From the NCBI GenBank assembly GCA_963705595.1, contig CAVPKD010000002.1, positions 261,962-325,961 of the forward strand: DNA of 64,000 nt. The letters are read 5' to 3'. Every line of letters begins with the position of its first letter. The first letter of the stretch is position 1. Both the position numbers and the translations under genes were made by a program. Under the pieces are notes generated by a model. It was not told the DNA's origin and ran no database searches. It saw nothing but the letters and a program-made list of their open reading frames with translations. The stretch is from Nitrospirota bacterium. GTDB lineage: Bacteria; Nitrospirota; UBA9217. Positions 41,131-56,792 of the stretch are shown piece by piece.

Positions 41131-41517
41131 TCGGAGCTCGGTGAATTACGGCTATGGTTCTTCGGACCATTTGCGGTTCAATCGGAGGATCAACAGGAGC
41201 AGGAGGAAGATAAGCGGTATCCACACGAAGGGATTGTATGGCTGACTCTCTCCGGTCATGGCAGTTACGCACCGGGACACAGTAACCGTTTGCTCGGTCT
41301 CAGGAGCTTCACTCGTGCTAGGTATCGCCGTTCATGCCGGCACACTAGCAAGCGCTTGTGGTTTATGCTGCTTCGTTTTCCTGGCGATCCAGATCGGCTC
41401 CCCGTCCTTGTCGTGGAGATGATACTCATTATACTAAAGATCCCATTCTTCACACCGTTTCAAATATTTGTGTCCTCCACATCCGTCTGTCTTTCCCGTG
41501 TCAGAAAAGACGGTCGC

Positions 41518-41943
41518 GGGGCAAATCAGAATAACAAGAATGACAGGCAGTTTTTTGATGCGGCGCGTGCATCGCACTGCAGATATACTATCAATCCGAT
41601 GGATGCTCATCAACAGCCCGTCTTTTTTCTTGACAACACCGGTTCGTGATGTTACATTATTTTTCGACTCACAATATATTATATAGGTTGTGCATTGCGG
41701 GGCTGTAGCTCAGCTGGGAGAGCACAAGGCGGGGCAAATCAGAATAACAAGAATGACAGGCAGTTTTTTGATGCGGCGCGTGCATCGCACTGCAGATATA
41801 CTATCAATCCGATGGATGCTCATCAACAGCCCGTCTTTTTTCTTGACAACACCGGTTCGTGATGTTACATTATTTTTCGACTCACAATATATTATATAGG
41901 TTGTGCATTGCGGGGCTGTAGCTCAGCTGGGAGAGCACAAGGC
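41518..41943 (+). repeat. Perfect tandem direct repeat, 2 x 213 bp. Each unit is the tRNA-Ala upstream/promoter region (about 181 bp) plus tRNA positions 1-32. The second unit is part of the functional tRNA.
   Basis: Unit A 41518..41730 and unit B 41731..41943 are identical by eye. The called ORFs 41468..41686 and 41690..41899 give identical peptides from the two units. Confidence 0.85.
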
Positions 41944-41987
41944 TGGCAGTCTTGGGGTCAGGGGTTCGATCCCCCTCAGCTCCACCA
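41912..41987 (+). tRNA. tRNA-Ala (anticodon GGC).
   Basis: GGGGCTGTAGCTCAGCTGGGAGAGCACAAGGCTGGCAGTCTTGGGGTCAGGGGTTCGATCCCCCTCAGCTCCACCA. It has a 7-bp acceptor stem with G3:U70, D-loop AGCTGGGA, anticodon loop CTGGCAG, T-loop TTCGATC and an encoded CCA. Confidence 0.9.
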
Positions 41988-41996
41988 AAATATTGA

Positions 41997-42031
41997 GGGG
42001 TTAGCTTAAAACAGCTAACCCTTCTTCATTT
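41997..42031 (+). terminator. Intrinsic terminator of tRNA-Ala (GGGGTTAGC-ttaaaaca-GCTAACCC + U-rich tract).
   Basis: A perfect 8-9-bp GC stem followed by ttcttcattt. Homologous hairpins follow repeat copies 2 and 3. Confidence 0.6.
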
Positions 42032-42310
42032 GAATGTGCTAAATTTGTGCTAATTCTGTCCAAGACCTCCACACCACTCCGCAAACTGTCAGGGCAATGA
42101 TGCGAATACCACGGCGTCATTTCGAGCGCAGAGATAAACCCTAGCTGAGATTCCTCGCTAATTACTACACAGGCGTTTCCAGTTGATCGCTGATCGACGA
42201 CAGCCGTCTGCCACTATGCCCGTTCTCTGTTGACAGTCATGAACCTTTCGGATACACTTTTGCCAGACAGTTCAGACACTGTGCCTCGCACATGCCATGG
42301 AGGATGCACC

Positions 42311-42508
42311 ATGAACGGGAAAATCATCGGTATCGTTATACTCGCTGCGGGAATCGTATTGCTAATCTTGGGATTCAATGAAATTGGGACATTCGGCTCC
42401 CGTGCGGGCAGGATGCTCGGTGCGGGCGTATCGAATAAGGTTCTGTTCTACTTCAGTGCAGGGGCCATATGCACAATCTTCGGCTTCATACAGATGCGGA
42501 AAAAATAA
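42311..42508 (+). CDS. Small two-TM membrane protein (DUF3185-like).
   Basis: MNGKIIGIVILAAGIVLLILGFNEIGTFGSRAGRMLGAGVSNKVLFYFSAGAICTIFGFIQMRKK. Confidence 0.4.
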   Translation: MNGKIIGIVILAAGIVLLILGFNEIGTFGSRAGRMLGAGVSNKVLFYFSAGAICTIFGFIQMRKK

Positions 42509-42876
42509 CCCTTGCCTCAGATGCGAACATTTATCGATGATGACTGTCAAGAATTGTAAAGTAGACAGTCATTAACAAACAGCTAGAGGGATTACATCCC
42601 CTCCTCTAGGCAATTCATACCGAACAAAGTCAACCGGTTATGATTGAAATAACTCTTTAATAAAACGGAGCTGCCGAGCGATAAGTACGACTTTAGGAAA
42701 TAGCTAAGATAGAAATGGATGGACTATTAGGTTTTGTATTGTGCAGTTCGTGTGTCAGTAGAGATCGGGAAAGGACGATAAAGGACGGAATCCCCTTCCC
42801 TGCAATAATCCGATAACCTCAAGATAAAGCAAGAAAAGGAAGAGGCGGGGAATGTATGCGGGGTAATCGGTTGCAT

Positions 42877-42921
42877 CTGGCAGTCTTGGGGTCAGGGGTT
42901 CGATCCCCCTCAGCTCCACCA
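42877..42921 (+). repeat. tRNA-Ala 3'-half copy 2 (positions 32-76, 45/45 identical). An att-type direct repeat.
   Basis: ctggcagtcttggggtcaggggttcgatccccctcagctccacca. Confidence 0.85.
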
Positions 42922-42931
42922 AGAATTCAAA

Positions 42932-42962
42932 GGGTTAGTCTAAATGACTAGCCCTTTTTTGT
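42932..42962 (+). terminator. Terminator hairpin homologous to the tRNA-Ala terminator (GGGTTAGTC-taaat-GACTAGCCC + T6).
   Basis: Read directly. It carries stem substitutions relative to 41997..42031. Confidence 0.5.
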
Positions 42963-43052
42963 TGGAATGTGATAAGGGTGTGATAATTCTATCCAGGATC
43001 TCGACATCCATCCGCAAATTGTCAGGACCATGATGCGAATACCGTATATATT

Positions 43053-43292
43053 TTATTTCGCGAAATTGATTTTCTTTGACAGAATGTTCAACCTTGAAGA
43101 TAAACTCGATTGTTTCCTTCTTTCCGGTCCTAAATATGAACCGACTGATCCCCTTATCGGATCTCTCTCAATATCTGCCCACTCTCCAGAACGATAAAAC
43201 TTTTTAATTTTCTTTGACGAAATGAGTTCATTGAGGAGCGATGGTCTAACCATATCATACTTATCGTTCTGATACATGACCTTGAGCAGCAT
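43053..43292 (-). CDS. Hypothetical small protein (79 aa) in island 2.
   Basis: ORF MLLKVMYQNDKYDMVRPSLLNELISSKKIKKFYRSGEWADIERDPIRG…. The composition is protein-like, but I recognise no family. Low support. Confidence 0.25.
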   Translation of the reverse strand: MLLKVMYQNDKYDMVRPSLLNELISSKKIKKFYRSGEWADIERDPIRGSVGSYLGPERRKQSSLSSRLNILSKKINFAK

Positions 43293-44010
43293 GGTCTGCC
43301 CTCCCTGACTTAGGATGGGAAAGAACCCATGTAACCGTTTTCGACTGTGAACCTCGAGATCAATATAATCTTACCCACACTTATTGCTGGCCTTTCATCT
43401 GAAGGGACGCTATGCCTGCCTTTTGAGAGAGAACCTTCGTATCTTCCGCATAATATGCGATAGTTTTATTAGGAATCTTCTTGAGGCATTTCTGTCCCCG
43501 AAGTAAGGTGAGTACTCGCATAATGTTCAGGTTTTTTTCTCTGGAAAAGCACTTAGGATACATATCACCTTCCATAATTTTTTTTCTCCGGCAGCCCAGC
43601 CGTCCCGTGTCTGGAACCCGTGAGCTTTGTGCCCCACATTGCGATGGTTTACTCTTTTCGGCGGATCAAGCGTGTCTATAACGACGATATATTTATATGT
43701 ATAACTAAATAGACACAAAAAAACTGATGCCGATTTTTAGATCAGAAAAAACCGGGTCAGATTTTGTTGGAAATAAGCGGTGGCAGTAAGCAGGCTGTTA
43801 ATACTTACATGTAAAATAGCAAATAATAGGTGCAAAGTAAAGTTCAATTTCGGGGTATTTTTAGGGTATTGTTGCAAAAAATCGAAATTATTTAAAAGGG
43901 CAAAACTCATAATAGACAAATTCAATATAGTACGGTCAATATTATGATGCAACGCGCAAAACGGGAAGCCAGACAGAATATCAAGGATTGTGTTTTTCTG
44001 CACTATCGAG

Positions 44011-44054
44011 CTGGCAGCCTTAGGGTCAGGGTTCGATTCCCATTAGCTCCACCA
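44011..44054 (+). repeat. tRNA-Ala 3'-half copy 3, degenerate (about 37/45 identical).
   Basis: ctggcagccttagggtcagggttcgattcccattagctccacca. Confidence 0.75.
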
Positions 44055-44424
44055 AGAATTCAAGAGGTCAGTTTACAAAGCTAACCCTTTTTCATTTGAC
44101 TGTGCTATATCTGTGATGTTTCTTTCCGAAACCTCTTTCCATTTCGCAAATATTCAGCGGTATTTTCATCCCCCCTGTACATTACCAGGGGGCCATTTTG
44201 CCCCACTAATACCGGCTTTTTTAAATTATCGGATATGTTTCAGTTAGCAATTATTAACAAGAATCGCATATTTCCACCTTGTTTAGTGCCGATAAAAATA
44301 GTATCATAATCATCCAATAATCTTGTATGAGACAGAGTAAAGAAAGAAACATTAAGCCGGGGGAAAGATAAGAACTCTGAAGGTAAACGGGGAAATAATC
44401 AAAAGCGGAAGGGATCCTGCGATC

Positions 44425-44886
44425 ATGAAAGGTACAACATATCTATTTCTTGGACTTCTAGCGGCTACTTTAGGAGCTGCCCAGCCAGTTCATGCTACGC
44501 TCGGTGAATCTGCCGATTCAGTCATGACGGATCGTAAGGCGCTCTCAGCGGTGCAAGCCGTTACAACGACACGTAATGCCTACACGGTTCAGGAGATCTC
44601 GTCTGATTCGGTTGCTGTTCGGGAGTACATGTCGCCATCCGGGATGGTATTCGGCATCGCATGGAATGGCCTGACCCACCCAGATCTTACACTGCTTCTA
44701 GGATCTTATGCCGGCGAATACCAGAAATCCGTGAAACAGACTCCTCGCAAGCCGGGCCGCAGGTTCTCTCAAATAAAGACGAACCGAATCGTGGTGGAGA
44801 AATGGGGGCATATGCGAAACCTGCGCGGTCGCGCCTACGTACCATCCTTAATCCCACCCGGAGTGACTGTCGATGAAATCAAGTAA
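44425..44886 (+). CDS. Secreted DUF2844-like protein.
   Basis: Signal peptide MKGTTYLFLGLLAATLGAAQPVHA. The body …YTVQEISSDSVAVREYMSPSGMVFGIAWNGLTHPDL… resembles the small proteins that pair with DUF3443 lipoproteins in Burkholderiales. This is from memory and unverified. Confidence 0.45.
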   Translation: MKGTTYLFLGLLAATLGAAQPVHATLGESADSVMTDRKALSAVQAVTTTRNAYTVQEISSDSVAVREYMSPSGMVFGIAWNGLTHPDLTLLLGSYAGEYQKSVKQTPRKPGRRFSQIKTNRIVVEKWGHMRNLRGRAYVPSLIPPGVTVDEIK

Positions 44887-46087
44887 AATACCAATTCTTT
44901 TCCTGATCCTTGTTCTGGTAGCCGGTTGTGGCGGCGGTGGATCAGGCACACCCCCGCCGAAAGGCAGTGCCGCTCTTGCCAACAACGTGCTTCCCATCAC
45001 CGTGAATGGATCGCTCTGTTCGGCCAGCACCTCAGCTTCCTACCTCAATAAGCCCTGCGTCAGCGTTACGGTCTGCACTCCCGGCACGTCAACCTGCCAG
45101 ACGATCAACGACATCCTCTTGGATACGGGAAGCTTCGGGCTGCGGATATTCAAGCAGGCGCTGACGACTGTTTCCCTGACACAGATAATCAGCGGTTCCG
45201 GATCAGTTGCCGAGTGCGCGCAGTTCAATGGTGGCTTATCGGAATGGGGTCCTGTTGTGTTAGCGGACGTTACCCTAGGCAAAGAAACCGTCAATAATGT
45301 TCCTATCCAGATCATAGATTCCACCTTCGGCACTGTCCCCAGCGCCTGCGGAACCCCGGATGCAACGCCGTCAGCCGCGGGCTTTACCGGGATACTGGGG
45401 GTCGGCGTCTTTGTCCAGGATTGCGGTTCAGTCTGCGCAAACCAAGCAAACAATGGAATCTATTACTCCTGCAGCGGATCGACATGCACGGGCATAACAG
45501 TTCCCCTATCCAGTCAGGTCCAGAATCCGGTGGTGTTCCTTCCTCCGGATAATAACGGCGTGAGTGATAATAACGGTGTGATCGTGGAGCTTCCGACCGT
45601 TCCTTCGAATGGTTCGCAATCAGTTAATGGAATTCTTGTGCTCGGGATCAGTACAAAGACCAACAATGTACCTTCCGGAGTCACCGCATATAACACAGAC
45701 CCAATCGGTGAGATCACCACAAGTCTCAGTGGTACCTACAGTGGGATTATTGATAGCGGATCGAACGGGCTGTTTTTCACACCTCCCTCACCAGGCCTTC
45801 TCCCGAATTGCCCGTCTCCTGATTCTGCATGGTTCTGCCCCTTGTCGATAACGACCCTTTCCGCGAAAAACCAAGGGGCATCGGGATCGCCGAGCGGCGA
45901 CGTTTTCTTCCAGATAGGCAACTTCATGAGCCTAACAAAGTCACCTAACAACGTCTTCTCCAACATTGGCGGGTCATCACCGGGCCTATTCGATTGGGGA
46001 CTTCCGTTTTACTTTGGACGAAACATCTGTGTGGGAATTGAAGGAAAGGCGTCCAGCATCGGCACCGGACCTTACTTTGCCTATTAA
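44873..46087 (+). CDS. Lipoprotein with a pepsin-like (bilobal aspartic protease, DUF3443-like) fold.
   Basis: Lipobox LVLVAGCGGG. Two aspartic-protease-like motifs at a pepsin-like spacing: INDILLDTGSFGLRIF (compare FDTGSSNLWV) and GIIDSGSNGLFF (compare VDTGTSLL). The start overlaps the preceding gene. Confidence 0.5.
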   Translation: MKSSKIPILFLILVLVAGCGGGGSGTPPPKGSAALANNVLPITVNGSLCSASTSASYLNKPCVSVTVCTPGTSTCQTINDILLDTGSFGLRIFKQALTTVSLTQIISGSGSVAECAQFNGGLSEWGPVVLADVTLGKETVNNVPIQIIDSTFGTVPSACGTPDATPSAAGFTGILGVGVFVQDCGSVCANQANNGIYYSCSGSTCTGITVPLSSQVQNPVVFLPPDNNGVSDNNGVIVELPTVPSNGSQSVNGILVLGISTKTNNVPSGVTAYNTDPIGEITTSLSGTYSGIIDSGSNGLFFTPPSPGLLPNCPSPDSAWFCPLSITTLSAKNQGASGSPSGDVFFQIGNFMSLTKSPNNVFSNIGGSSPGLFDWGLPFYFGRNICVGIEGKASSIGTGPYFAY

Positions 46088-46329
46088 AGGTGAGATGAAG
46101 TTCTGTGTTTAAACATTGTTGCTTCCTGAACTTGTCATGGCTGACACTCCTTGAAACTGCTAAAGATTCACTCAGAATTCGTTGGCGCCTATTCGGCCGA
46201 AATACTGTTAATGGTGCGGCATGTTCATTGCTGATCCTAGACCTCGCCTCATAGATATAACTCTGGCCGGCATGTTGTGCTTCACCAGGAGAGTTCAGCC
46301 CGGCCGCTGAAACGTTCGCTAGAGATAGA

Positions 46330-46842
46330 ATGAAATTTTCATACAGCATAATTCGCTTGGTCATTTTAGCGCTCATCCTGGTCCTGCCAGGCTGCACATT
46401 CACGAAACTGCTGACAACCCGGTTAGTGAAGCCAACCTTCACCTATAAGGGCTTCGAGCTGGTCGATGCCTCGCAAAGCAGCTTAATCGTGAACTTTCTG
46501 TTCTCCGCGCATAACCCGAATAAAGCAGGATTGAAGAACATAACCTGCTCGTATGAGCTTTTTGTGGAAGGAAATAAAATTCTGACAGGAAATGACGTTC
46601 CTTTGGCGCTTAACCCGAACGGCGACACGGAGATCAAGGTTCCTGCAACGATCGCTTATTCGGACCTCTTCCCCGTTCTGGGGTCTGTCGTACAACGGAT
46701 TTTATCAGGTCAGAAAACAATACCTATCACTATAAATGCCGTCTTTTCCGGTAAACCTGCGACCTATAGCGAAGCAGGAAAAGAAGAAGCGATTTCCTTC
46801 GAGATGAAATTGATCAAGACCGCCGACATTCCCTTACCGTAA
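46330..46842 (+). CDS. LEA14-like / WHy-domain lipoprotein.
   Basis: Lipobox LVLPGCTF. Then KPTFTYKGFELVD…SLIVNFLFSAHNPNKAGLKNITCSYELFVEGNKILTG…, typical of LEA_2/WHy. Confidence 0.5.
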   Translation: MKFSYSIIRLVILALILVLPGCTFTKLLTTRLVKPTFTYKGFELVDASQSSLIVNFLFSAHNPNKAGLKNITCSYELFVEGNKILTGNDVPLALNPNGDTEIKVPATIAYSDLFPVLGSVVQRILSGQKTIPITINAVFSGKPATYSEAGKEEAISFEMKLIKTADIPLP

Positions 46843-47162
46843 GGGAAAATAATCAAAGGACAGTGAAGGAATTCGATTGTATTTTGTAGCGGCATATACC
46901 TGAACTCTGCACTGACAACAATACGGTCCCATGTGCATTTTTGAACTAGTATTATTTAATGAAACATCCTTGCAACAAAAATACTATTGATTGTAGTAGT
47001 CCGGTTGGATCAATTCCGAAGGAGCGATGCCTAGTGAAAGCAGCGAGATAGCTGCTAAGACGGAGAGTAAATTATGCCGTCTTCCTTTGAACTCACAGCT
47101 TATGCTTGGCTAAAGTACATATTGCAATTGGATAACTTTGCGTATATGAAATTCAATCTAAA

Positions 47163-47996
47163 ATGATGACCAAAACGGGATGGTTCATTATTGCTTTTGT
47201 GTCCATAATATTATTTCACCTGAGTCTATCGCAAGCAGAAGAACCCGATCTGTCCACGGTTCAGACGCAAAAGGAAGACAACGATATAAACAAAAAACCT
47301 CCGGACCGCGTGGTTAAGCTAGACAAGGAGTATTTTACCGGATAGTGGACGGACACAAAGAACATTCTTACTTCCCCAGCTCGACGGGAGACAAAGGATT
47401 GGATAAAAGCATCTGCCATCTTTGGTATATCAATAGGGTTGTATACACAGGATGGTAAAATTCAGACGTGGGTACAGAAAAATAAGAATAACACCAATTC
47501 TCATCTTGCTGATGATGCCTCAACTACATTACGTTATGCGATACCGGTCCTGGGAGGACTTGGCCTATACGGCTACATCGCCGAAGACGAAAGAGCCAAA
47601 AGAACCTTCTTGCTGAGTGCCGAGAGCGTCATCATTACCGGCGTTTTTGTTCAAACTCTTAAACACTCAACAGGCCGTCATCGGCCTAATACTGGTGATC
47701 ATTATGATACATGGTCCGGCCCCACCATGAAAGGCTCATATCTGTCGTTCCCTTCTGGTGATGCCTCGACAGCCTTTGCCATAGCATCCGTTGTAGCTTC
47801 TGAATATGATAATATTGTGGTACCTACCCTGGCATACACAGCCGCATCGCTCATAGCTCTTGAACGAGTATACAACAACGCGCATTGGTCTTCCGATGTT
47901 TTTGTGGGTTCCGCGATAGGATATTTTACCGGAAAAGCGATCGTAGCTTCGCATAGGAACGTTTGCGAGAGCAACACCTATCGGTTGTTCCTCTGA
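47163..47996 (+). pseudogene. PAP2-family phosphatase paralogue with an in-frame TAG at 47343..47345 and substituted catalytic motifs (PSGD instead of PSGH).
   Basis: ORFs 47163..47345 (signal peptide) and 47439..47996 are in the same frame. The latter has KHSTGRHRP, SFPSGDAS and ERVYNNAHWSSDV (the KxxxxxxRP / PSGH / SRxxxxxHxxxD pattern with H to D and S to E). Confidence 0.5.
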
Positions 47997-48440
47997 TAGA
48001 CGCAAAGGGCGTTGGGTTACTAGTGACTTATAGGTATTAATCATCCGGTCCTTCGCATAATTCCCGCCCGCCTTCCCGCACTGGTGCTCGTGGTCACCTG
48101 GCTGAGGTTCATGTGCAGAATTCAACTAATATCCGTTAGAGTTTCAATTCGTCGTAACCCATATACTTGTGGGTGTTCACGAGAGGGATCAGGATTTGAG
48201 TGAAGAGATGAAGATCGATTGAATCATTCAGTATCTGATCCTTCCCGTGCCTCACGAAGTTTCCATTCTTAGCAACTCATCAATTTTCAACCCGGATTTA
48301 TTAGCATATACCCTTAAAATACCCATTGGAAAATATTGACAAGTCATAATATCTGTGCTTGTATCTAAGTAGTTCTCGATAAAGCCAAACCCTTCGCAAG
48401 AGGGGGACGGAAAGCGACGGGTCTTAAGAGACAAAGATGG

Positions 48441-48490
48441 CCGAGCTGCCGAGGGATGATTCCTTTGGTTAGCTCGGCCTTTTGTTTTGT
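48441..48490 (+). terminator. Strong hairpin (GGCCGAGCT…AGCTCGGCC, 9-bp perfect stem) followed by TTTTGTTTTG. An orphan intrinsic terminator in an island 3 intergenic region.
   Basis: Read directly. No annotated plus-strand gene ends within 440 nt upstream. Confidence 0.45.
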
Positions 48491-48770
48491 ATCATAATTT
48501 CCGTGATTAATCTTGTTCATCATCCGACAAAACCAAACGTCTTGTGAGAACGGGCGGGAAACGGTTAGTCCTTGAAGATCAAGGTCGTCGCGGGGTGTTT
48601 CGAATAACCTAGCCACAATCGGAATATAACATATGATGGCACAAAAGCGCACATAGGTTTCGCTATTCAGCAGAAGTTGTAATTGAATGTCATTAAGCAG
48701 ATGTCGAATTTAATTAACGTGGACATGTCCACATCAAGAACTTGGAAATATCAAGGCGCAGAGAGGACGA

Positions 48771-49346
48771 ATGTTTTTGAATCGATTGAGGCTACGTATG
48801 GAATCATCTACAGAAAACATAACAATTAAAATCCCGGTCGAAGTGGGACAGATCAGTTCCGCGGGAATAGAGAGGACGAAGAATCTCGTACGGGCAGCTC
48901 TAATCGCGGCCGTGGCGCTCGCTTCCGTTTACGCCTCCAAAGTGCCCGATGCGGCGGCAGGTTCATTCTCCACGGTCATCCGGGTGAACGCCGTTGTCCT
49001 GGCACGAACGCAACTGAAGCCCCTTCGACAGCCGGCGATGCTTGTCATAACGGAGACCGACATTCAGCGGGGTTACGTTGAAGTCAGCGGCGCCTCGATC
49101 TTCGAGATCTGGAGCAACGATCCGGCCGGATGTGTTCTCACCTTCGAGTCAAGCGATTTTCCCTACCGCGAAGCGGCTGTCAGAGTGATGGGCAGAGAAA
49201 TTATTATATATCCGACGGGCGGCATGATCCTTATGCCGGTCAGAGGAAGACAGCAGATCGCTCTGGACTACCGGTTTATCCTTACTACCGAAGCACAGCC
49301 CGGCACCTACGCATGGCCCCTCTCCGTTTCTGTTAATCCGCGGTGA
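48771..49346 (+). CDS. Hypothetical membrane-anchored periplasmic protein (191 aa).
   Basis: RBS gagagga 4 nt upstream. TM/signal anchor LVRAALIAAVALASVYA. No recognisable family. Confidence 0.35.
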   Translation: MFLNRLRLRMESSTENITIKIPVEVGQISSAGIERTKNLVRAALIAAVALASVYASKVPDAAAGSFSTVIRVNAVVLARTQLKPLRQPAMLVITETDIQRGYVEVSGASIFEIWSNDPAGCVLTFESSDFPYREAAVRVMGREIIIYPTGGMILMPVRGRQQIALDYRFILTTEAQPGTYAWPLSVSVNPR

Positions 49347-49788
49347 AGGGAGCGGGGATGGTGGAGCAGATGGTCGCGATGCCGACTGTGACTGACACTG
49401 TTCATACAGAACGAATCCCCAGGCAAGGACAAGGAAGCCAAGTGGCTCCCTACGCTGAAGGAACAATTCTTCATGGCTATGCTTCTCTACATGCCGAAAG
49501 CCAAAGTACTGGAAGGCAAGAAGCGCACCGCCGCTGAACCGCGACGTTCATGTGTACGTTTCAACTGGCATTTTGTATCTCCTCTCTATCGGTCCCCGTT
49601 TCGACCTTGTTGATGTACTTAACAGATTGGCTTAGAAACACCGTGCCATATTTATACTAAAAAATATCCGTAAGTGCAAAATCATAGTAATAAACAAACT
49701 CATCGCCATGCGGCCACCCTTTGATCCGGCCATTAAAAAAGGGAGACTAGGCAACAAACCAAGGATTGTTGTTTTCTGCCCTGCCCTA

Positions 49789-49822
49789 CTGGTTGTCTTG
49801 GGGTCAGGGGTTCGATTCCCAC
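49789..49822 (+). repeat. tRNA-Ala 3'-half copy 4, partial (positions about 32-63, lacking the acceptor 3' strand).
   Basis: ctggttgtcttggggtcaggggttcgattccc, then diverges. Confidence 0.65.
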
Positions 49823-50092
49823 GAGTGAACATGTGCTGCGCGGGACGCGTCCTGGTGACGCCGGGACCCGGATTTCGCGCGCTGCTGTTGACACATGCAT
49901 CCTTGACCTATATCATGGCTGAGCAACTCTTTGTTCATCGTAAGATCAATCTTGGCCATGACAAACTGTAATAAAAAGGTGTGGCGGAGGTCAATAACTG
50001 CTCGTCATTGTATTGAATAATGGAGCCGTGCTGGATTCAAATCGATCATGCCAAAAGGGTTGGCATATCGGATGCACCGCACATTACCACGC

Positions 50093-50293
50093 TTATACAT
50101 TTCTTTTTATGCGTTTACCTCCCCTCGGACTGGATTTTAAAACAAACTCCCTCTCCTCAACCGCTCTAATTAAAACAACTGGCTTGCCATTCTTTGTCAC
50201 GGTGACATCCTCTCTCTTTTTATTAATTTCGGCGACAATTGCTGTCGCATGCGCACGAAGCTCTGAAACTGTTATAAATCTCAAAGCACTCAC
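50093..50293 (-). CDS. Phd/YefM-family antitoxin-like protein (orphan).
   Basis: MSALRFITVSELRAHATAIVAEINKKREDVTVTKNGKPVVLIRAVEE…, the YefM N-terminal pattern. I translated the downstream minus-strand region and found no toxin-sized ORF. Confidence 0.45.
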   Translation of the reverse strand: MSALRFITVSELRAHATAIVAEINKKREDVTVTKNGKPVVLIRAVEEREFVLKSSPRGGKRIKRNV

Positions 50294-50480
50294 CTCGTTC
50301 TAATCAGAATTTGGGATTCTCGACGGTAACTGATCAAGATTTTCATTGAAAAAACCGCCCGAAATCATCTGCAAATATAACCCTTAGGTCCGTCCTTTCA
50401 GATAGCTTCAATTACTACTGATACCGGTAAGAAATTCGCATACCGATGAGTTGTTCTCCTAATTGTCGGGCCGCACGAGT

Positions 50481-52685
50481 TTAGCCTTTCTTGTCTAACA
50501 TTTCTCTTATCTTGGTGAGGAGCTCATGGGGTGTAACTGGCTTTGTAACGAAATCCGCCTCTTCGTCTAAAATATCTTTTCGCTGAATAATATCTGCCGT
50601 ATAGCCGCTGGTAAACAATATTTTAACATCGGGCTGTATCTTCTTTATTGCAATACTGGCTTCTTTGCCGCTTTTCTTAGGCATTACTACATCGAGCATA
50701 ACGAGTTGTATCGTGTCTTTATTCGCTATAAACTTATTTATGCCGTCCTCTCCATCTACTGCTTCTATGACTTTATAACCAAATTCCTCAAGCACGGCCT
50801 TCGAAAGAGCCCTAACCTCTTTATTATCCTCTGTAACCAGTATGGTCTCATTACCACCCTTGGGAGTAATAGCCACTGCGGCTTTTGGCTCTTCACTTTT
50901 TGCTTTAACCAAAGGGAGGTATATTTTGAATGTCGTGCCCATCCCCGGCTCGCTGTATTCCGTGATGTGACCGTTGTGCTGCTTGATTATTCCATATACT
51001 ATCGAAAGCCCAAGACCTGTCCCCTTCCCAAACTCCTTGGTCGTAAAAAAAGGCTCAAATATCTTTTGTCTGGTTTGTTCATCCATGCCCACACCGCTAT
51101 CGGTCACCGTTAACAGGACATACAGACCAGGTTTCTCCAGATCGTACGTTTTTGCATAGTTCGCATCCAAGTATTTGGTTTCTGTACTGATGGACAGTAG
51201 CCCGCCATTAGGCATGGCATCACGCGCATTGGTGCACAAGTTCATCAAGACCTGTTCTATTTGGCCGGGGTCTACCATTACCGTCACGTTCTTATCGACA
51301 AGTTGTGTCTTTAGTTCGACATCCTCACCAATAACCCTGTGCAGAAGTTTCTCCGTTCCCTTGATAAGCTCATTAAGATCTATCTGTTTCGGGCTGATTA
51401 CCTGTTTTCTGCTGAATGTAAGGAGCTGACGGGTCAGATCGGCTGACTTCTCTGCTATGCTCAGTATCTGTGTCGCGAACGACTTTAATGAGCTGTCATT
51501 CTCTACCTTAAAGCTCAAAAGGGTTGCGTAGCCGATTATTGCCGTTAGCATATTATTAAAATCATGCGCAATACCGCCTGCAAGCTGACCCACTGCCTCC
51601 AATTTTTGTGCTTGGTGGAGTTGTGCCTCGAGTTTGCTTTTTTCTTCTTGAACCTTTCTCTCATGTGTGAGGTCGTGCATAGTCATCAATATACTTATAG
51701 GCTGTTCTTGTTTGTCGCGGACTATTTTAACGGTGATCTCAATTGGTCGTCCGGCTGGATTATCAGGATTATCTACCTCCATGATAATGAACGCGTCACG
51801 TTTTTCCTCCTGTGCCTGGCATGCGGGGCAGAGGACCATTTCGCCATAGGGATGAATGATCTCTGCAATATGGCGTCCAACAGCGGTTTCTGGAGTTCTC
51901 CCTGTCATTGTATAGAATGATTTGTTGGCTCGCATTAAACGTCGATTGAGATCGAGCAGGTAGATAACATCCTGAGATGCATCCATTGCAGCCCTCCACT
52001 CCGTCGCAGCTTGCTCTACGGCTCTCTCAATTCGTTTGCGTTCGGTTATGTCAGTGGCGACCCCAGTCGTCCCTATCAGTTCATTTCGCTCGTTTCTAAC
52101 AGGATAGTACCATATTTCAAATACGATTCCGTCTATATTGGTCACTGTGGTGAACGCCTCACCCGCTAATGCACGACGGACTCCCTCGAGCACCGAAGGT
52201 GCGTCGCGGTAAACTTCGAAGACCGACCGGCCTACGACCTCGCCGGGTTTGAGGCCCAGCGCTAACAGTCCTCTCCCCTCAGAAAGCGTAAACACTCCCC
52301 CCCGATCCAGTGCGAAAAGCACCACCGGCGTATTTTCCATGACGGTACGCAGACGCGACTCGCTTTTCCGCAGTTCCAGCTCCGCACGTTTGCGCTCCGC
52401 GATTTCCTGCTGAAACCGCTCATTGATTTTTTTTAGTTCGGCGGTATGTTTTATAAAATAAATAACTATGGGCGCAACGATCAAGGGGATAAACAAAGCA
52501 TCAAGCGCGCCTATTATCAGTAATTTTGGTGAAAATTTTCCATACCAGATGTAACTCTGGATGGTATTCAAGAATGCCGTGAACAGTTCAGAGACCACGA
52601 CAGAAAGCCAGATAAAATGCCAGGGATTGATTCTTTTCTGCTTAGCAAGATTTTTTTCGGTCATGTTGGGCATTTCCTTCCGCAT
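50481..52685 (-). CDS. Hybrid sensor histidine kinase / response regulator (TM - PAS/PAC x2 - HisKA - HATPase - REC).
   Basis: Intact 734 aa. H-box IAHDFNNMLTAI. N/G-boxes NLCTNARDAMP, DSGVGMD, GTGLGLSIV. REC VMLDVVMPKKSG. The real start is probably MPNMTEK or MTEK. Confidence 0.85.
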   Translation of the reverse strand: MRKEMPNMTEKNLAKQKRINPWHFIWLSVVVSELFTAFLNTIQSYIWYGKFSPKLLIIGALDALFIPLIVAPIVIYFIKHTAELKKINERFQQEIAERKRAELELRKSESRLRTVMENTPVVLFALDRGGVFTLSEGRGLLALGLKPGEVVGRSVFEVYRDAPSVLEGVRRALAGEAFTTVTNIDGIVFEIWYYPVRNERNELIGTTGVATDITERKRIERAVEQAATEWRAAMDASQDVIYLLDLNRRLMRANKSFYTMTGRTPETAVGRHIAEIIHPYGEMVLCPACQAQEEKRDAFIIMEVDNPDNPAGRPIEITVKIVRDKQEQPISILMTMHDLTHERKVQEEKSKLEAQLHQAQKLEAVGQLAGGIAHDFNNMLTAIIGYATLLSFKVENDSSLKSFATQILSIAEKSADLTRQLLTFSRKQVISPKQIDLNELIKGTEKLLHRVIGEDVELKTQLVDKNVTVMVDPGQIEQVLMNLCTNARDAMPNGGLLSISTETKYLDANYAKTYDLEKPGLYVLLTVTDSGVGMDEQTRQKIFEPFFTTKEFGKGTGLGLSIVYGIIKQHNGHITEYSEPGMGTTFKIYLPLVKAKSEEPKAAVAITPKGGNETILVTEDNKEVRALSKAVLEEFGYKVIEAVDGEDGINKFIANKDTIQLVMLDVVMPKKSGKEASIAIKKIQPDVKILFTSGYTADIIQRKDILDEEADFVTKPVTPHELLTKIREMLDKKG

Positions 52686-53051
52686 GGCATAAATTTGCTT
52701 GGTACCATATACTCGATTTTAAGCAGATCAATTATTAACGATCTCCTTAGATAATATTCGCGGTAATTTAGCGCTATAATATTAGCTATTATATTAGCTA
52801 TTTAATTGCTGCATGTCAAGCATACAATGTAGTATATGGCATTACCAAATCTCACGCCAACTTGATTAAAATAAGACATCTTTCGATGTTGCAGAAAGGG
52901 ACTTCATGGCAAGGGCATGCGCAACTGTCGAATTTCGCTGTTTTCCGTGTCGAGATCCCTCCTGAAATCTCTATTTCGGTTCAGTACCGGCCGTCGTCAC
53001 CGGTTACATGAATCTTCTTTACCATCGTTCTTTCCATCTCCTCCATTGACA

Positions 53052-53852
53052 ATGGTTTTAGAAAAGCATAGACTGACGTCTATTATTTTCGACGTATTTT
53101 CGAAGCTCACGCATTCGGTAACAGTGTACCTATTAATTTATTTTTTTATCCCAGGGATCATTTTTGGAATGCATATCTGTATGAATGTGAAAAAGATCGG
53201 CATCAGCTTCCTGCTAGTTGTCCTGCTTGTCCTATGCAGCTACTATTTTATAGACGCAAGAACCGCCTTGTTAGTCAATAGAGTATGGATGTCCCATGCT
53301 CGTCTGGCTGTCTTTTCCGCTAACATTCCCGACTTCTTATTTTCCATAGTTTGTCTCATTACTGTCATTGCATGGACAGCATATTTCTACCTCACTCATA
53401 AAGGCATTTACGACACACATACGCGGTTCTTTCAGCTCGTTGCCATTACGATCCCGCTAACATTCTTTCTGAAATCCTCCCTGAAGCATGTGGTTGGCAG
53501 AATCGACACAAGATTCTGGTTACATCATCCCGGTTTTAAAGAGTTCCACTGGTTTCACGGAGGGGGAAATTACACCAGTTTTCCTTCGGGGCATATGGCT
53601 GTTTTTATGGCTCTCGCTATCGCCCTGTGGATGTTCTATCCTCGCTATCAGTCCGCATATATTAGCTTCTTATCGGTTCTGGCGCTGGCTCTCATTATTA
53701 CCAATTATCATTTCATCAGTGATGTTGTTGCCGGTGCTTACCTCGGTTTCTTTGTTAATTATTTTACCCATCTTGGCTTAACATTCTTCTCAAATAGAAG
53801 GATGAGAACTGGTGAATATGATCAGAAGAATGAGAGTCGACAATTATTATAA
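53052..53852 (+). CDS. PAP2-family membrane phosphatase. The ORF is open from 52917, so the start is uncertain.
   Basis: Multi-TM. SFPSGHMAVF and HFISDVVAGAYLGF (PSGH and SRxxxxxHxxxD-like motifs, both intact). Confidence 0.55.
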   Translation: MVLEKHRLTSIIFDVFSKLTHSVTVYLLIYFFIPGIIFGMHICMNVKKIGISFLLVVLLVLCSYYFIDARTALLVNRVWMSHARLAVFSANIPDFLFSIVCLITVIAWTAYFYLTHKGIYDTHTRFFQLVAITIPLTFFLKSSLKHVVGRIDTRFWLHHPGFKEFHWFHGGGNYTSFPSGHMAVFMALAIALWMFYPRYQSAYISFLSVLALALIITNYHFISDVVAGAYLGFFVNYFTHLGLTFFSNRRMRTGEYDQKNESRQLL

Positions 53853-54182
53853 GCGATCTACTTCATGTCGCTGAGATATATCTTCGTTCCCATTAAATAC
53901 TAGCCCGGTTCAGGACAGGCTGCACCTGTTCCGAATAATCGTACATCTGGTTGTCTGAAACGGGCAAAAAAGTGGCTGATTTTACCACAGCTCATTTCAT
54001 TGTTTCCTTTTCCCCAGGAATCCCAGACCTAGCACATTTGGGACCGCATAGTTTTTCTACAAGAGACAGTCAGAAACTTGCAATAATGGACATGGAATAT
54101 ATTTTGATACCCGTCTCCCCTCATAAATTAAAACAACCACTTGACAATACCCCTAAAAGGGATAGAATATTTATTAGACTGA

Positions 54183-54224
54183 CTGGCAGTCTTGGGGTCA
54201 GGAGTTCTATTCGCCTCGACTCCA
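54183..54224 (+). repeat. tRNA-Ala 3'-half copy 5, degenerate (outermost att-type repeat).
   Basis: ctggcagtcttggggtcaggagttctattcgcctcgactcca. It is preceded by a sigma70-like TTGACA-16-TAGAAT at 54151..54178. Confidence 0.65.
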
Positions 54225-54295
54225 GTAAGCAATGAAAAGGGTTGGCCAACAGGTCAGCCCTTTATTTTTGCTACGACATCACGAAGGAGCCCCAC

Positions 54296-55687
54296 ATGGA
54301 CAACGACAATCTTATTGCTGCACTTGATCACTTCCAAAATCATACACCCGATTACCTCGACCACCTCAAAGACCTTGTCCGAGTCCCAAGCATAAGCTTT
54401 CCCGGGTTCGACCTTGCCACGGTTAGACGAAGTGCAGAGACTGTTGCAAAAGTCCTCGCCAAAAGCGGTCTCAAGGATGTTCGCATCTTGGATACCGGGG
54501 TAGGTCATCCTTCTGTGTTCGGTCAATGGACGGGCGATCCCGGAAAACCAACGATCCTCCTGTACGCACACCACGATGTCCAGCCTGTTGGGAGAGAAGA
54601 TCTTTGGACGACGCCGCCTTTCGAGCCGTCGGAACGGAACGGCAGGCTCTACGGCCGTGGAGTCTCCGACGACAAGGGAGGCGTGATGATGCATGCCGCG
54701 GCCATCAGGTCATACCTCGCGTCCATCGGTAGTCTGCCTGTGAACGTCAAAGTATTGATTGAAGGTGAAGAAGAGGTGGGCTCGACGAACCTTGACAAAC
54801 TGCTTCAGGGTCACCGCGAGCTCTTTTCGGCAGACGTGGTCCTTATTGCGGACAGCGAGAACTTCGACAGCGGTATCCCATCGCTAACGGCCTCGCTCCG
54901 CGGTATTGTGACCGTGAATATCGAGGTACGATCGCTCTCATCGAGCGTACATTCAGGCACCTGGGGCGGCCCGCTGCCTGACCCCGTGCTCGCCCTCGCA
55001 AAGATGCTTGCAGGCCTTGTTGATGACCAGGGGAAGCCCTCCATCCCGGGCCTTTTGGACAAGGTGCGGCGACTCTCGCCGACAGAGAGAGCATGCCTCA
55101 ATGCCCTGCCGTTCAAGGAGACGCTCTACCGGAAACAGTCAAAAATCTTAACCGGGGTACAAATTATCGGGGGCGAAGGCTCGGTCTACGAAAAAATGTG
55201 GCACCGACCGTCCATCGCCGTGAACGCAATCGAAGCGAGCAGCCGCCGTCAGGCTGCCAATATCATCAACGACTCAGCCTGGGCTCGGGTCGGGATACGG
55301 ATAGTCCCGGATATGGATCCTGCGGAGACTCTGGATCTGCTTAAGGAACACTTGATACGCCATGCGCCATGGGGCGTCGAGGTGATGATAGAACAAGAGT
55401 CGCCCTCACGCTGGTGGAGGACCGATACGAATGGCCCCATATTTGAGATAGCACGCGCAGCGCTTGAGAAAGGATACGGCAAAAAACCGGCAGTCGTGGG
55501 CGCAGGCGGCTCCATTCCCTTTGTGCAGACCATAACGGAGGCGCTTGGCGGCATCCCTGCCTTACTTTTTGGCATAGGAGACCCCTACACGGCGGCGCAC
55601 TCGGAGAATGAGAGCCTTTTAATTTCTGACTGGGAAAAAGGATGCAGGAGCCTCATTCATCTGTTTGCTGCACTGTCTGATTTGTAA
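54296..55687 (+). CDS. M20/M25/M40-family metallopeptidase (dipeptidase / DapE-ArgE-like).
   Basis: MDNDNLIAALDHFQNHTPDYLDHLKDLVRVPSIS…LLYAHHDVQP…GRGVSDDKGGV…, with the M20 metal-binding motifs. Confidence 0.8.
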   Translation: MDNDNLIAALDHFQNHTPDYLDHLKDLVRVPSISFPGFDLATVRRSAETVAKVLAKSGLKDVRILDTGVGHPSVFGQWTGDPGKPTILLYAHHDVQPVGREDLWTTPPFEPSERNGRLYGRGVSDDKGGVMMHAAAIRSYLASIGSLPVNVKVLIEGEEEVGSTNLDKLLQGHRELFSADVVLIADSENFDSGIPSLTASLRGIVTVNIEVRSLSSSVHSGTWGGPLPDPVLALAKMLAGLVDDQGKPSIPGLLDKVRRLSPTERACLNALPFKETLYRKQSKILTGVQIIGGEGSVYEKMWHRPSIAVNAIEASSRRQAANIINDSAWARVGIRIVPDMDPAETLDLLKEHLIRHAPWGVEVMIEQESPSRWWRTDTNGPIFEIARAALEKGYGKKPAVVGAGGSIPFVQTITEALGGIPALLFGIGDPYTAAHSENESLLISDWEKGCRSLIHLFAALSDL

Positions 55688-55995
55688 AATTGCCTTTCTC
55701 TCCGAGACATGATTTTAAATGTAGTCTGTATCTTCGGACCTTGTCACTACTTCAGGTGGCACCATCCTCCATATCAAATTTACGTTCCCACACGATACGG
55801 TAACAATCGAGCTCACTGCGGAAGTCGCTCGCATCTTACAACTCGGCACTCAGCGGAAGTAGAGCCGGGCATGGGTCTCCGTTTTGCGGATATCCCTGAA
55901 GCTGTTCTGATGAGGATAAGAAACTTAGTCCATGGGGAGATGATGGGGGGCCTTGACTGGAAAACGGATATTTAACCACTTCATGACAACCGAAA

Positions 55996-56036
55996 AGAGG
56001 GTTCGTCCGATCGGGACGAACCCTCTTCTTTTTTTC
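55996..56036 (+). terminator. Intrinsic terminator (GAGGGTTCGTCC-gatc-GGGACGAACCCTC + T7), between the convergent peptidase and SurA-like genes.
   Basis: Read directly. A-tract on one side and T-tract on the other, so it may act in both directions. Confidence 0.6.
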
Positions 56037-56047
56037 GGAATCTCCTT

Positions 56048-56740: not shown

Positions 56741-56792
56741 CTTAAATCCCCCTGCCAATATTTTATATTTAAAACGTTACATCCTGAAATTG

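What the first reader, a model, noticed from the sequence alone, without database searches (positions are those of the whole stretch)
41518..54224. A tRNA-Ala(GGC) gene carrying four nested, integrase-less islands marked by decaying copies of its 3' half
The intact tRNA-Ala (41912..41987) is followed by four direct copies of its own anticodon-loop-to-CCA segment. They lie at 42877, 44011, 49789 and 54183, and their divergence increases with distance (45/45 identical, then about 37/45, then truncated, then degenerate). This is the classic signature of successive site-specific integrations at a tRNA 3' end, with the newest element nearest the gene. No segment encodes an integrase or excisionase. 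Islands 1 and 2 are under 1.2 kb and essentially non-coding. The left arms after the tRNA, copy 2 and copy 3 are homologous for about 120 nt. The shared segment includes a compensatorily mutated terminator hairpin and the motif …caaaYtgtcaggRcMatgatgcgaatacc…. This points to one element family, perhaps miniature elements mobilised in trans. Copies 3 and 4 share an extra 20-mer (aaggattgtNgttttctgc) just upstream. The larger islands carry an envelope-oriented cargo: secreted DUF2844-like protein, pepsin-like lipoprotein, LEA14 lipoprotein, two PAP2 paralogues, hybrid histidine kinase and an orphan antitoxin.
Basis: seen in the sequence. Interest (0 to 1): 0.7.

Follow-up and report, generated by a model that had tools for sequence, protein, structure and literature searches.

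The report
Decayed island array at tRNA-Ala
A tRNA-Ala gene in an uncultured Nitrospirota genome has been hit four times by related integrating elements; each has since lost all but the tail of its integrase gene, so this is a clear but ordinary case of genomic-island build-up and decay.

Summary
tRNA-Ala(GGC) (41912-41987) is followed by four direct copies of its 3' part. Each starts at the first base of the anticodon loop: 42877 (45/45), 44011 (39/45 plus one gap), 49789 (29/32, then truncated) and 54183 (37/45). Chance predicts 0.02 such matches.

The interpretation needs correcting. The conserved 120-nt "left arm" is not a mobilisation signal of integrase-less mini-elements. It is the 3' end of a tyrosine integrase gene on the minus strand. 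All four islands begin with such a stub, covering residues 327-367, 332-365, 346-365 and 278-324 of a 367-codon relative. That relative (L053) sits convergent with a 76/76-identical tRNA-Ala(GGC), and its stop codon lies 13 nt from the tRNA's 3' end.

Copy 4 and its hairpin are the ancestral tRNA 3' end, next to the M20 peptidase gene. The island genes are missing from 43 related Nitrospirota loci. The exception is island 4, which the closest relative shares.

Most likely reading: four successive anticodon-loop-type integrations by one element family, each then locked in by deletion. This is a known kind. One unexplained extra is an exact 213-bp tandem duplication (promoter plus tRNA 5' half) that ends at the att boundary.

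The parts
41516..41943 (+). Exact tandem duplication, 2.0 copies of 213 bp. Each unit holds the tRNA promoter and tRNA positions 1-31. The junction has a 2-nt GC microhomology. The right end falls at the first base of the anticodon loop, which is also the att boundary.
   Evidence: D1, 100% identity; TRF score 856
41699..41729 (+). Orphan copy of the tRNA 5' half (positions 1-31), created by the duplication
41843..41871 (+). tRNA promoter TTGACA-17-TACATT with an extended -10 TG. A duplicate lies at 41630-41658.
   Evidence: the region aligns to L005 and L053
41912..41987 (+). Intact tRNA-Ala(GGC). Its bases 41943-41987 (anticodon loop to CCA) form the att identity block.
   Evidence: 76/76 identical to the tRNA in L031, L044, L051 and L053
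41995..42024 (+). Terminator hairpin supplied by island 1. It overlaps the end of the integrase stub.
   Evidence: (-19.6 kcal/mol)
42004..42126 (-). Integrase stub of island 1, residues 327-367 of the L053 integrase, 83% identical. The catalytic-region motif RY has become WY. The stop codon lies 14 nt from the tRNA end.
   Evidence: E 7e-17; E 8e-16
41988..42876 (+). Island 1 (889 bp, 45.8% GC). Its cargo is a DUF3185 membrane protein at 42311-42508. An independent metagenome contig (L052) recovers it at 99.9% identity.
42877..42921 (+). att copy 1, 45/45 identical to the tRNA 3' part (attR of island 1)
42943..43044 (-). Integrase stub of island 2, residues 332-365, 65% identical to L053. Its tail IITPLSHSNKKGLVI is closest to database fragment P0005.
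   Evidence: E 4e-9
42922..44010 (+). Island 2 (1089 bp, 39.6% GC). It holds a GSU3473-family gene at 43053-43292 (-) and a 64-aa ORF at 43381-43575 (-). A weak c-di-GMP-I-like match lies at 43586-43662 (-). The conserved P arm is 43958-44010.
   Evidence: (D5)
44011..44054 (+). att copy 2, 39/45 with a 1-nt deletion (attR of island 2)
44076..44135 (-). Integrase stub of island 3, residues 346-365 (EVSERNITDIAQSNEKGLAL). It is weak on its own but sits in register with the other arms.
   Evidence: E 0.017
44055..49788 (+). Island 3 (about 5.7 kb, 48% GC). Genes: DUF2844 (44425-44886), DUF3443 (44873-46087), LEA_2 (46330-46842), PAP2 (47439-47996) and a 191-aa ORF (48771-49346). A c-di-GMP-I-GGC riboswitch lies at 48375-48454. 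The P arm is 49736-49788.
49789..49821 (+). att copy 3, 29/32 identical and then truncated (attR of island 3). The deletion also removed the terminator and the last integrase codons of island 4.
49915..50037 (-). Integrase stub of island 4, residues 278-324 (the ..LRHTF...LLSH region), carrying a stop codon and a 6-residue gap
   Evidence: E 3.6e-4; E 0.003
49822..54182 (+). Island 4 (4.4 kb, 44.3% GC). Genes: Phd/YefM antitoxin without a toxin (50093-50293, -), hybrid histidine kinase (50481-52685, -) and PAP2 (52917-53852). From 51626 rightward, the closest relative L001 shares it at 90% nt identity.
54183..54227 (+). att copy 4, 37/45. This is the displaced ancestral 3' part of the tRNA gene (attR of island 4).
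54235..54268 (+). Ancestral tRNA terminator hairpin (-24.4 kcal/mol). It is homologous to the hairpin between tRNA-Ala and the M20 gene in L005, and to the one in L001.
54296..55687 (+). M20 peptidase gene, the conserved right flank. It is followed by a SurA-like gene and GatB in about 30-40 related species.

Best explanation
The region is a tRNA-Ala(GGC) integration hotspot holding four tandem genomic islands. All four are now immobilised remnants of one family of tyrosine-integrase elements.

How an intact element of this family is built:
- It carries an attP made of a P arm and a core. The core is the 7-nt anticodon loop CTGGCAG flanked by an imperfect inverted repeat, CCCTGCCCTA and TCTTGGGGTCAGGG.
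- It carries the rest of the tRNA 3' part and a new terminator hairpin.
- Its integrase gene converges on the tRNA, and the stop codon lies inside that hairpin.

How the array formed:
- Each integration crossed over in the anticodon loop.
- The element's own 3' part and terminator rebuilt the tRNA gene.
- The previous 3' part was pushed to the far end of the new island. The original 3' end and terminator therefore now sit beside the M20 peptidase gene, as copy 4.
- After each integration a deletion removed the 5' 75-95% of the integrase gene and any excisionase. Stubs of 20-47 codons next to the tRNA-proximal att remain, and the cargo is fixed in place.

Shown here: the repeats, the stubs and their register, a near-intact cognate integrase at the identical tRNA in another genome, absence of the islands from relatives, and the shared oldest island.

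Inferred: the order of events, the crossover position, and why stubs survive. The proposed reason is that a deletion reaching the terminator or the tRNA would be harmful while that arm adjoined the working gene.
For: Repeats: five plus-strand copies against 0.02 expected. The identity block always starts at tRNA position 32, the first base of the anticodon loop.

Arms are integrase ends:
- A profile of the three arm peptides retrieved only PF00589 proteins. A wider profile found 560 integrase C-termini.
- tblastn of P0008 and of the L053 integrase places stubs at 42004-42126, 42943-43044, 44076-44135 and 49915-50037. All are on the minus strand and each follows an att copy.

Cognate integrase:
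- L053/L054 carry a 367-codon integrase with the domains Int_N, SAM_5 and Phage_integrase, interrupted by one TGA.
- It converges on a tRNA-Ala(GGC) that is 76/76 identical to the window's.
- Its stop codon is 13 nt from the CCA end and its tail ...RYSHHCPDSLRSGVEVLDRISTELAQSNEKGLAVLS matches arm 1.
- Full-length relatives of 343-374 aa exist, some with an HTH_17 excisionase-like gene just upstream.

Family spread at this site: the same P arm lies upstream of att copies in L042 (twice), L011 and L007, next to the M20 gene.

Ancestral site:
- In L005 the tRNA lies 350 nt upstream of the M20 gene and has the same terminator as copy 4.
- The 14 proteins of the anticodon-loop islands have no counterpart near M20 in 43 related species. 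The exception is island 4 in L001.

Foreign composition: island GC is 39.6-48.0% against 54.5% in the flanks.

Independent decay: the stubs end at different residues, and arm 2 is closer to P0005 than to arm 1.

Precedent: Islander (PMC4383910) and tycheposon islands with fragmented integrases and partial tRNAs (bioRxiv 10.1101/2020.12.28.424599).
Against: - No recombination was observed, so everything rests on comparative anatomy.
- The divergence gradient is not monotonic (copy 4 is 37/45, copy 2 is 39/45). Order may therefore not equal age. Integration into an internal att copy, or arrival of several islands together, is possible.
- The stub of island 3 (E 0.017) and that of island 4 (E 0.003) are weak on their own. 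Their position and strand carry the argument.
- Island 1's P arm is unlike the P arms of islands 2 and 3.
- Only 64 kb of the genome was seen, so a working cognate integrase elsewhere cannot be excluded.
- The closest relative's contig (L001) stops inside island 4, so it is unknown whether islands 1-3 are younger than that split.
Confidence: 0.85

Rival explanations
1. Islands 1 and 2, or at least island 1, are non-autonomous miniature elements of the CIME type. They would still be excised and integrated by a cognate integrase encoded elsewhere in the genome or on an incoming relative.
For: - Island 1 has a perfect 45-nt att pair.
- It keeps about 140 nt of P' arm.
- Mini-islands of 1-2 kb bounded by att copies, some with stubs, also occur in L050 and L042.
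- CIMEs are defined as having lost integration genes while keeping attL and attR (PMC6323972).
Against: - The stubs of islands 1 and 2 are cut at different residues and belong to different sub-lineages. They are not copies of one propagating mini-element.
- Island 1 was found only in this same context in another sample.
- No cognate integrase or HTH_17 excisionase lies in the 64-kb window. The only tyrosine recombinase is a Xer-like gene at 11712-12593.
- A 45-nt segment with no changes is weak evidence of youth or of selection.
Confidence: 0.1
2. The array was not built step by step at this locus. Two or more islands arrived together as an already composite element, or later elements entered internal att copies. 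Distance from the tRNA would then not reflect age.
For: - Divergence is non-monotonic: 45/45, 39/45, 29/32 and 37/45.
- Any junction between two islands reconstitutes a P arm, core and P' arm, which is attP-like. One example is at 43958-44135.
- Composite transfer after accretion is documented for ICE/CIME systems (PMC6323972).
Against: - Island 4 alone is shared with L001, which fits it being the first arrival.
- The three P' arms are only 76-79% identical to each other, and they resemble different database relatives.
- The copy nearest the gene is the only perfect one.
Confidence: 0.15
3. The tRNA fragments are ordinary segmental duplications or independent tRNA pseudogenes, unrelated to site-specific recombination.
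For: The locus does contain one plain tandem duplication of 213 bp.
Against: - All copies start at the same base, the first of the anticodon loop, and share one orientation.
- Each is followed by a terminator and an integrase stub in fixed register.
- Conserved P arms precede them here and in other genomes.
- A near-intact element has the same geometry.
Confidence: 0.02

Closest known systems
tDNA-integrated genomic islands with an anticodon-centred ('A') attP, including tandem arrays (Williams 2002; Islander database, PMC4383910)
   Same: - An intact tRNA gene is regenerated by the element.
- Displaced 3' fragments lie in direct orientation and mark the island ends.
- The identity block runs from the anticodon loop to the CCA end.
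- A tyrosine integrase gene sits next to the tRNA-proximal att.
- Several islands are stacked at one tDNA.
   Different: - No island retains an intact integrase gene, so Islander's filter would reject all four.
- An array of four is rare there: tandems of 3 or more made up 4 of 3919 islands.
- The host is an uncultured Nitrospirota lineage.
Tycheposon-driven island build-up in Prochlorococcus (bioRxiv 10.1101/2020.12.28.424599)
   Same: Successive integrations at one island tRNA push older elements outward. They leave fragmented integrases and scattered partial tRNAs among niche-related cargo.
   Different: - Membership in the tycheposon integrase and replication-module families was not tested.
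- The phylum differs.
- No intact element is present in this window.
CIMEs (cis-mobilisable elements) and accretion arrays of ICE/IME systems (PMC6323972; PMC5704250)
   Same: Elements that have lost their integration genes but remain flanked by att sites, lying in tandem at a shared attachment site.
   Different: - Only island 1 keeps an undamaged core pair.
- No conjugation or mobilisation genes are present.
- Nothing suggests a resident helper element.
- The CIME concept comes from Firmicutes ICEs that integrate at the 3' ends of protein-coding genes.
Temperate-phage tyrosine integrases with an adjacent excisionase (for example the Pseudomonas phage YMC11/02/R656 group)
   Same: The cognate integrase L053 aligns over 93% of its length to these integrases. 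Close full-length relatives have an HTH_17 excisionase-like gene upstream.
   Different: - Identity is only about 31%.
- No phage structural genes occur in the islands or in L053/L054.
- The 34-nt att sequence is absent from IMG/VR viral contigs.

Membership tests
tDNA genomic island, anticodon-loop attP class (Islander criteria) | Intact tDNA plus cognate 3' fragment(s) in the same orientation on the same replicon | tested here: met
   One tRNA and four plus-strand fragments, against 0.02 expected by chance
tDNA genomic island, anticodon-loop attP class (Islander criteria) | Identity block begins in the anticodon loop and extends to the tRNA 3' end | tested here: met
   All copies begin at tRNA position 32 (CTGGCAG). 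The full block is 45 nt. The P arm provides an inverted repeat around the loop.
tDNA genomic island, anticodon-loop attP class (Islander criteria) | An intact tyrosine integrase gene inside each island | tested here: not met
   Only stubs of 20-47 codons remain. No PF00589 ORF was found among the island ORFs scanned.
tDNA genomic island, anticodon-loop attP class (Islander criteria) | Recognisable remnant of the family's integrase gene at the tRNA-proximal end, in the family's orientation | tested here: met
   Four minus-strand stubs, each just downstream of an att copy. The geometry matches L053.
tDNA genomic island, anticodon-loop attP class (Islander criteria) | Island absent from the same site in related genomes | tested here: met
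   L005 has the tRNA 350 nt from the M20 gene. Island proteins are absent from 43 loci, except island 4 in L001.
tDNA genomic island, anticodon-loop attP class (Islander criteria) | Integrase-dependent excision and integration | not testable with these tools
   This needs reads from the source sample or an experiment.
CIME (cis-mobilisable element) | Integration and transfer genes have been lost | tested here: met
   No intact integrase, excisionase, relaxase-like or T4SS-like ORF was found in 41988-54182
CIME (cis-mobilisable element) | Intact attL and attR are retained | tested here: inconclusive
   Island 1 has a 45/45 core pair, but whether its arms suffice is unknown. Islands 2-4 have mutated or truncated cores.
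CIME (cis-mobilisable element) | Mobilised by a related integrase-bearing element | not testable with these tools
   No helper element lies in the window, and the rest of the genome was not available.
SSV-type elements with an integrase gene split by integration | attP lies inside the integrase ORF, so integration separates the N- and C-terminal parts | tested here: not met
   The integrase stop codon lies 13-14 nt outside the tRNA sequence, both in L053 and in arm 1. No N-terminal fragments lie at the far island ends.
Tycheposons | Membership in the tycheposon integrase clades and replication modules | not tested
   Only the pattern of build-up and decay was compared.

The most novel reading that the evidence does not exclude
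The exact 213-bp tandem duplication ends at the very base where the integrase's crossover block begins. It could be a fresh footprint of integrase action at this tRNA: a nick or an illegitimate exchange at the core, resolved against an upstream site. That would mean a cognate integrase has been active in this genome very recently. It would also mean island 1, with its perfect att pair, is a live element mobilisable in trans rather than a fossil.
Probability: 0.1. Interest if true: 0.45.

Novelty: new member of a known kind. Interest (0 to 1): 0.25.

Why it matters
- It documents in uncultured Nitrospirota the same island-building process known from Enterobacteria, Streptococcus and Prochlorococcus. 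The process is repeated integration at one tRNA gene followed by loss of the integrase, which fixes the cargo in place.
- The cargo here consists of envelope proteins, PAP2 phosphatases, a hybrid kinase and genes behind c-di-GMP riboswitches.
- It defines an integrase family with a known target, tRNA-Ala(GGC) at the anticodon loop, and recognisable P and P' arms. These can be used to map islands in MAGs of this group.
- It carries a practical warning. Conserved non-coding-looking arms next to tRNA fragments should be translated on both strands before an element is called integrase-less.

Tried and rejected
- A scan of IMG/VR viral contigs for the 34-nt att sequence found nothing.
- A regex for tyrosine-recombinase box II in the 43 related loci found nothing. 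tblastn of the arm peptides against those loci gave only one relevant weak hit, in L023.
- P0126 looked like a full-length relative, but it is a response-regulator/integrase fusion ORF.
- P0165 is full length but lies beside tRNA-Leu in the other orientation, so it does not share the site.
- Both word-index protein searches listed only fragments of up to 223 aa. I first wondered whether the family exists only as stubs. The exhaustive search showed full-length members of 343-374 aa, and many fragments come from contigs shorter than 2 kb.
- The idea that attP lies inside the integrase gene (SSV type) was rejected, because the stop codon precedes the tRNA sequence.
- Exact look-ups of the M20 peptidase and DUF3185 proteins gave only same-context contigs, so they say nothing about mobility.
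- I compared the upstream junction of the 213-bp duplication with the att core by eye. Only 3 of 7 overlap bases match and the flanks are unlike, so a secondary att site is not supported.
- Rfam found no family for the small insert seen after the tRNA in relatives.
Full report
**Observation.** ARAGORN finds a single tRNA in the window, tRNA-Ala(GGC) at 41912-41987 on the plus strand. The 20 nt that start at its anticodon loop recur at 42877, 44011, 49789 and 54183 with at most two mismatches. All copies are on the plus strand, against 0.02 matches expected from shuffles. Over the full 45-nt segment the copies score as follows:
- 42877: 45/45.
- 44011: 39/45 with one deletion.
- 49789: 29/32, followed by truncation.
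- 54183: 37/45.

In every copy the identity starts at tRNA position 32, the first base of the anticodon loop CTGGCAG. The four intervals have 45.8, 39.6, 48.0 and 44.3% GC, against 54.6 and 54.5% in the flanks. The flanks hold a NiFe hydrogenase operon on the left, and an M20 peptidase, a SurA-like gene and GatB on the right. Islands 1 and 2, however, do encode proteins: DUF3185 in island 1 and a GSU3473-family protein in island 2.

**What the conserved arm is.** The roughly 120 nt after the tRNA, after 42877 and after 44011 are 76-79% identical. Translated on the minus strand they give:
- Arm 1: ...LEMTPWYSHHCPDSLRSGVEVLDRISTNLAHSNEEGLAVLS*
- Arm 2: ...RYSHHGPDNLRMDVEILDRIITPLSHSNKKGLVI*
- Arm 3: ...EVSERNITDIAQSNEKGLAL*

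A profile of these peptides retrieved only proteins carrying the Pfam integrase domain PF00589. A broader profile retrieved 560 integrase C-termini of the form HDLRHTFATRL..AG.DLY...LLGHKDIKMTQRYSHHCPDSLRSGVEVLDRIST.LAQSNEKGL. The hairpin is the tRNA terminator, which overlaps the last integrase codons.

tblastn with a family member also found a fourth stub after the truncated copy 3, at 49915-50037 on the minus strand. It covers the ..LRHTF...LLSH region.

**Cognate integrase.** The exhaustive profile search shows that full-length family members have 343-374 residues. Some have an HTH_17 excisionase-like gene immediately upstream. The closest long relative of the arms is P0264. It belongs to a 367-codon integrase gene in L053/L054 (NCBI assemblies GCA_040960975.1 and GCA_040961345.1) that has one in-frame TGA in place of a Trp codon. 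This gene converges on a tRNA-Ala(GGC) that is 76/76 identical to the window's. Its stop codon lies 13 nt from the CCA end, inside a near-identical terminator.

Mapped onto that protein, the window stubs are residues 327-367 (83% identity), 332-365, 346-365 and 278-324. No further integrase pieces and no excisionase homologue occur in the window. The only intact tyrosine recombinase is a Xer-like gene at 11712-12593.

**Comparison with relatives.** The M20 peptidase located 43 loci in related Nitrospirota MAGs.
- The right flank (M20, an 88-aa ORF, a SurA-like gene, GatB) is conserved in most of them.
- The proteins of the anticodon-loop islands have no counterpart there. The exception is the kinase and second PAP2 of island 4 in L001, the closest relative. 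L001 aligns to window 51626-58000 at 90% identity, including copy 4.
- In L005 an intact tRNA-Ala(GGC) lies 350 nt upstream of the M20 gene. Its terminator is homologous to the hairpin after copy 4. Copy 4 and its hairpin are therefore the ancestral end of the tRNA gene.
- tRNA 3' fragments starting at position 31/32 lie upstream of the M20 gene in L042 (two copies), L023, L011, L007, L028 and L001.
- The sequence upstream of several of these fragments matches the P arm before window copies 2 and 3...AAAACGGGAAACCAGG...CAAGGATTGTGATTTTCAGCCCTGCCCTA|CTGGCAG. The bases CCCTGCCCTA and TCTTGGGGTCAGGG form an imperfect inverted repeat around the 7-nt loop. That arrangement is what core-type binding sites around a crossover region would look like. 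This last point is inference.
- L044/L045 hold the same hydrogenase-tRNA junction in another relative. There the tRNA is followed by a different integrase stub and unrelated cargo, a PIN protein and an S24-HTH protein.

**Mechanism.** The simplest account is four integrations by members of one element family, each crossing over in the anticodon loop. Each element rebuilt the tRNA with its own 3' part and terminator and displaced the earlier 3' part outward. Deletions then removed most of each integrase gene.

The stubs end at different residues, and arm 2 resembles database fragment P0005 more than it resembles arm 1. This argues for separate arrivals and separate deletions. It argues against spread of one ready-made mini-element.

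In island 4 the Phd/YefM antitoxin gene ends about 55 nt from the stub. One deletion may therefore have removed both the toxin gene and the 5' part of the integrase gene. This is inference.

Stubs probably survive because, while an arm adjoined the working tRNA, deletions reaching the terminator would have been harmful. This is also inference.

The pattern is well known. Islander uses exactly this logic (PMC4383910). Prochlorococcus islands show successive integrations with fragmented integrases and partial tRNAs (bioRxiv 10.1101/2020.12.28.424599). Elements lacking integration genes but keeping att sites are called CIMEs (PMC6323972).

**Unexplained item.** Positions 41516-41943 are an exact tandem duplication of 2.0 x 213 bp. 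Each unit contains the tRNA promoter, TTGACA-17-TACATT, and tRNA positions 1-31. The right end coincides, within the 2-nt GC microhomology, with the start of the att block. The upstream junction does not resemble the att core.

Three readings are possible:
- An ordinary microhomology-mediated duplication.
- An assembly artefact.
- Repair of an integrase-induced nick at the core.

None of the related loci shows the duplication. It cannot be resolved here.

**Verdict.** The feature is a decayed tandem island array, a new member of a known kind, and of modest interest.

Noticed in passing
window 41516-41943: Exact 213-bp tandem duplication holding the tRNA promoter and the tRNA 5' half. Its right end lies at the first base of the anticodon loop, which is the att boundary. 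It leaves an orphan 5' half-tRNA at 41699-41729 and a second promoter at 41630-41658. The cause is unknown.
   Followed up: partly
window 48375-48454 (+): Strong match to the c-di-GMP-I-GGC riboswitch variant (74.6 bits against a gathering score of 59), followed by a terminator-like hairpin at about 48440-48490. It lies about 320 nt upstream of a 191-aa ORF (48771-49346) that has no Pfam or NCBIfam match.
   Followed up: partly
window 43586-43662 (-), with 43381-43575 (-) and 43053-43292 (-): Sub-threshold c-di-GMP-I-GGC-like match (30.6 bits). It lies upstream of a 64-aa ORF and a GSU3473-family gene (NCBIfam 84 bits) in island 2.
   Followed up: partly
L005 7029-7192; L044 2562-2793 (-); L050 1992-2084 (-): In relatives, but not in the window, a conserved 140-215-nt non-coding insert directly follows tRNA-Ala(GGC). 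It is bounded by an 18-21-nt direct copy of the tRNA's T-loop-to-CCA end. This is a second, T-loop-type attachment signature. The insert contains a hairpin with compensatory changes between genomes. It has no Rfam family.
   Followed up: partly
L053 5735-6838; also L054, L055 and L056: The near-intact cognate integrase carries the same single in-frame TGA (Trp166) in five contigs from two NCBI assemblies and two further sequencing runs. Either it is a pseudogene fixed in that population, or the stop is read through. This was not examined.
   Followed up: no
window 50093-50293 (-): A Phd/YefM antitoxin gene with no toxin partner. Its 3' end lies about 55 nt from the integrase stub of island 4, which suggests one deletion removed both the toxin gene and the integrase 5' part.
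   Followed up: partly
window 11712-12593 (-): A 293-aa Xer-like tyrosine recombinase, about 30% identical to the island integrase family over the catalytic domain. It is the only intact tyrosine recombinase detected in the window and is presumably the housekeeping XerC/XerD.
   Followed up: partly
L042 7635-7733 and 9299-9474; L050 269-313 and 1992-2009: Other genomes also carry 1.7-kb mini-islands bounded by tRNA-Ala fragments with the same P arm. Short decayed islands are therefore common at this tRNA in the lineage.
   Followed up: partly
window 44425-46087 (+): The DUF2844 and DUF3443 genes overlap by 14 nt (44873-44886), which suggests a translationally coupled pair of unknown function within island 3.
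   Followed up: no
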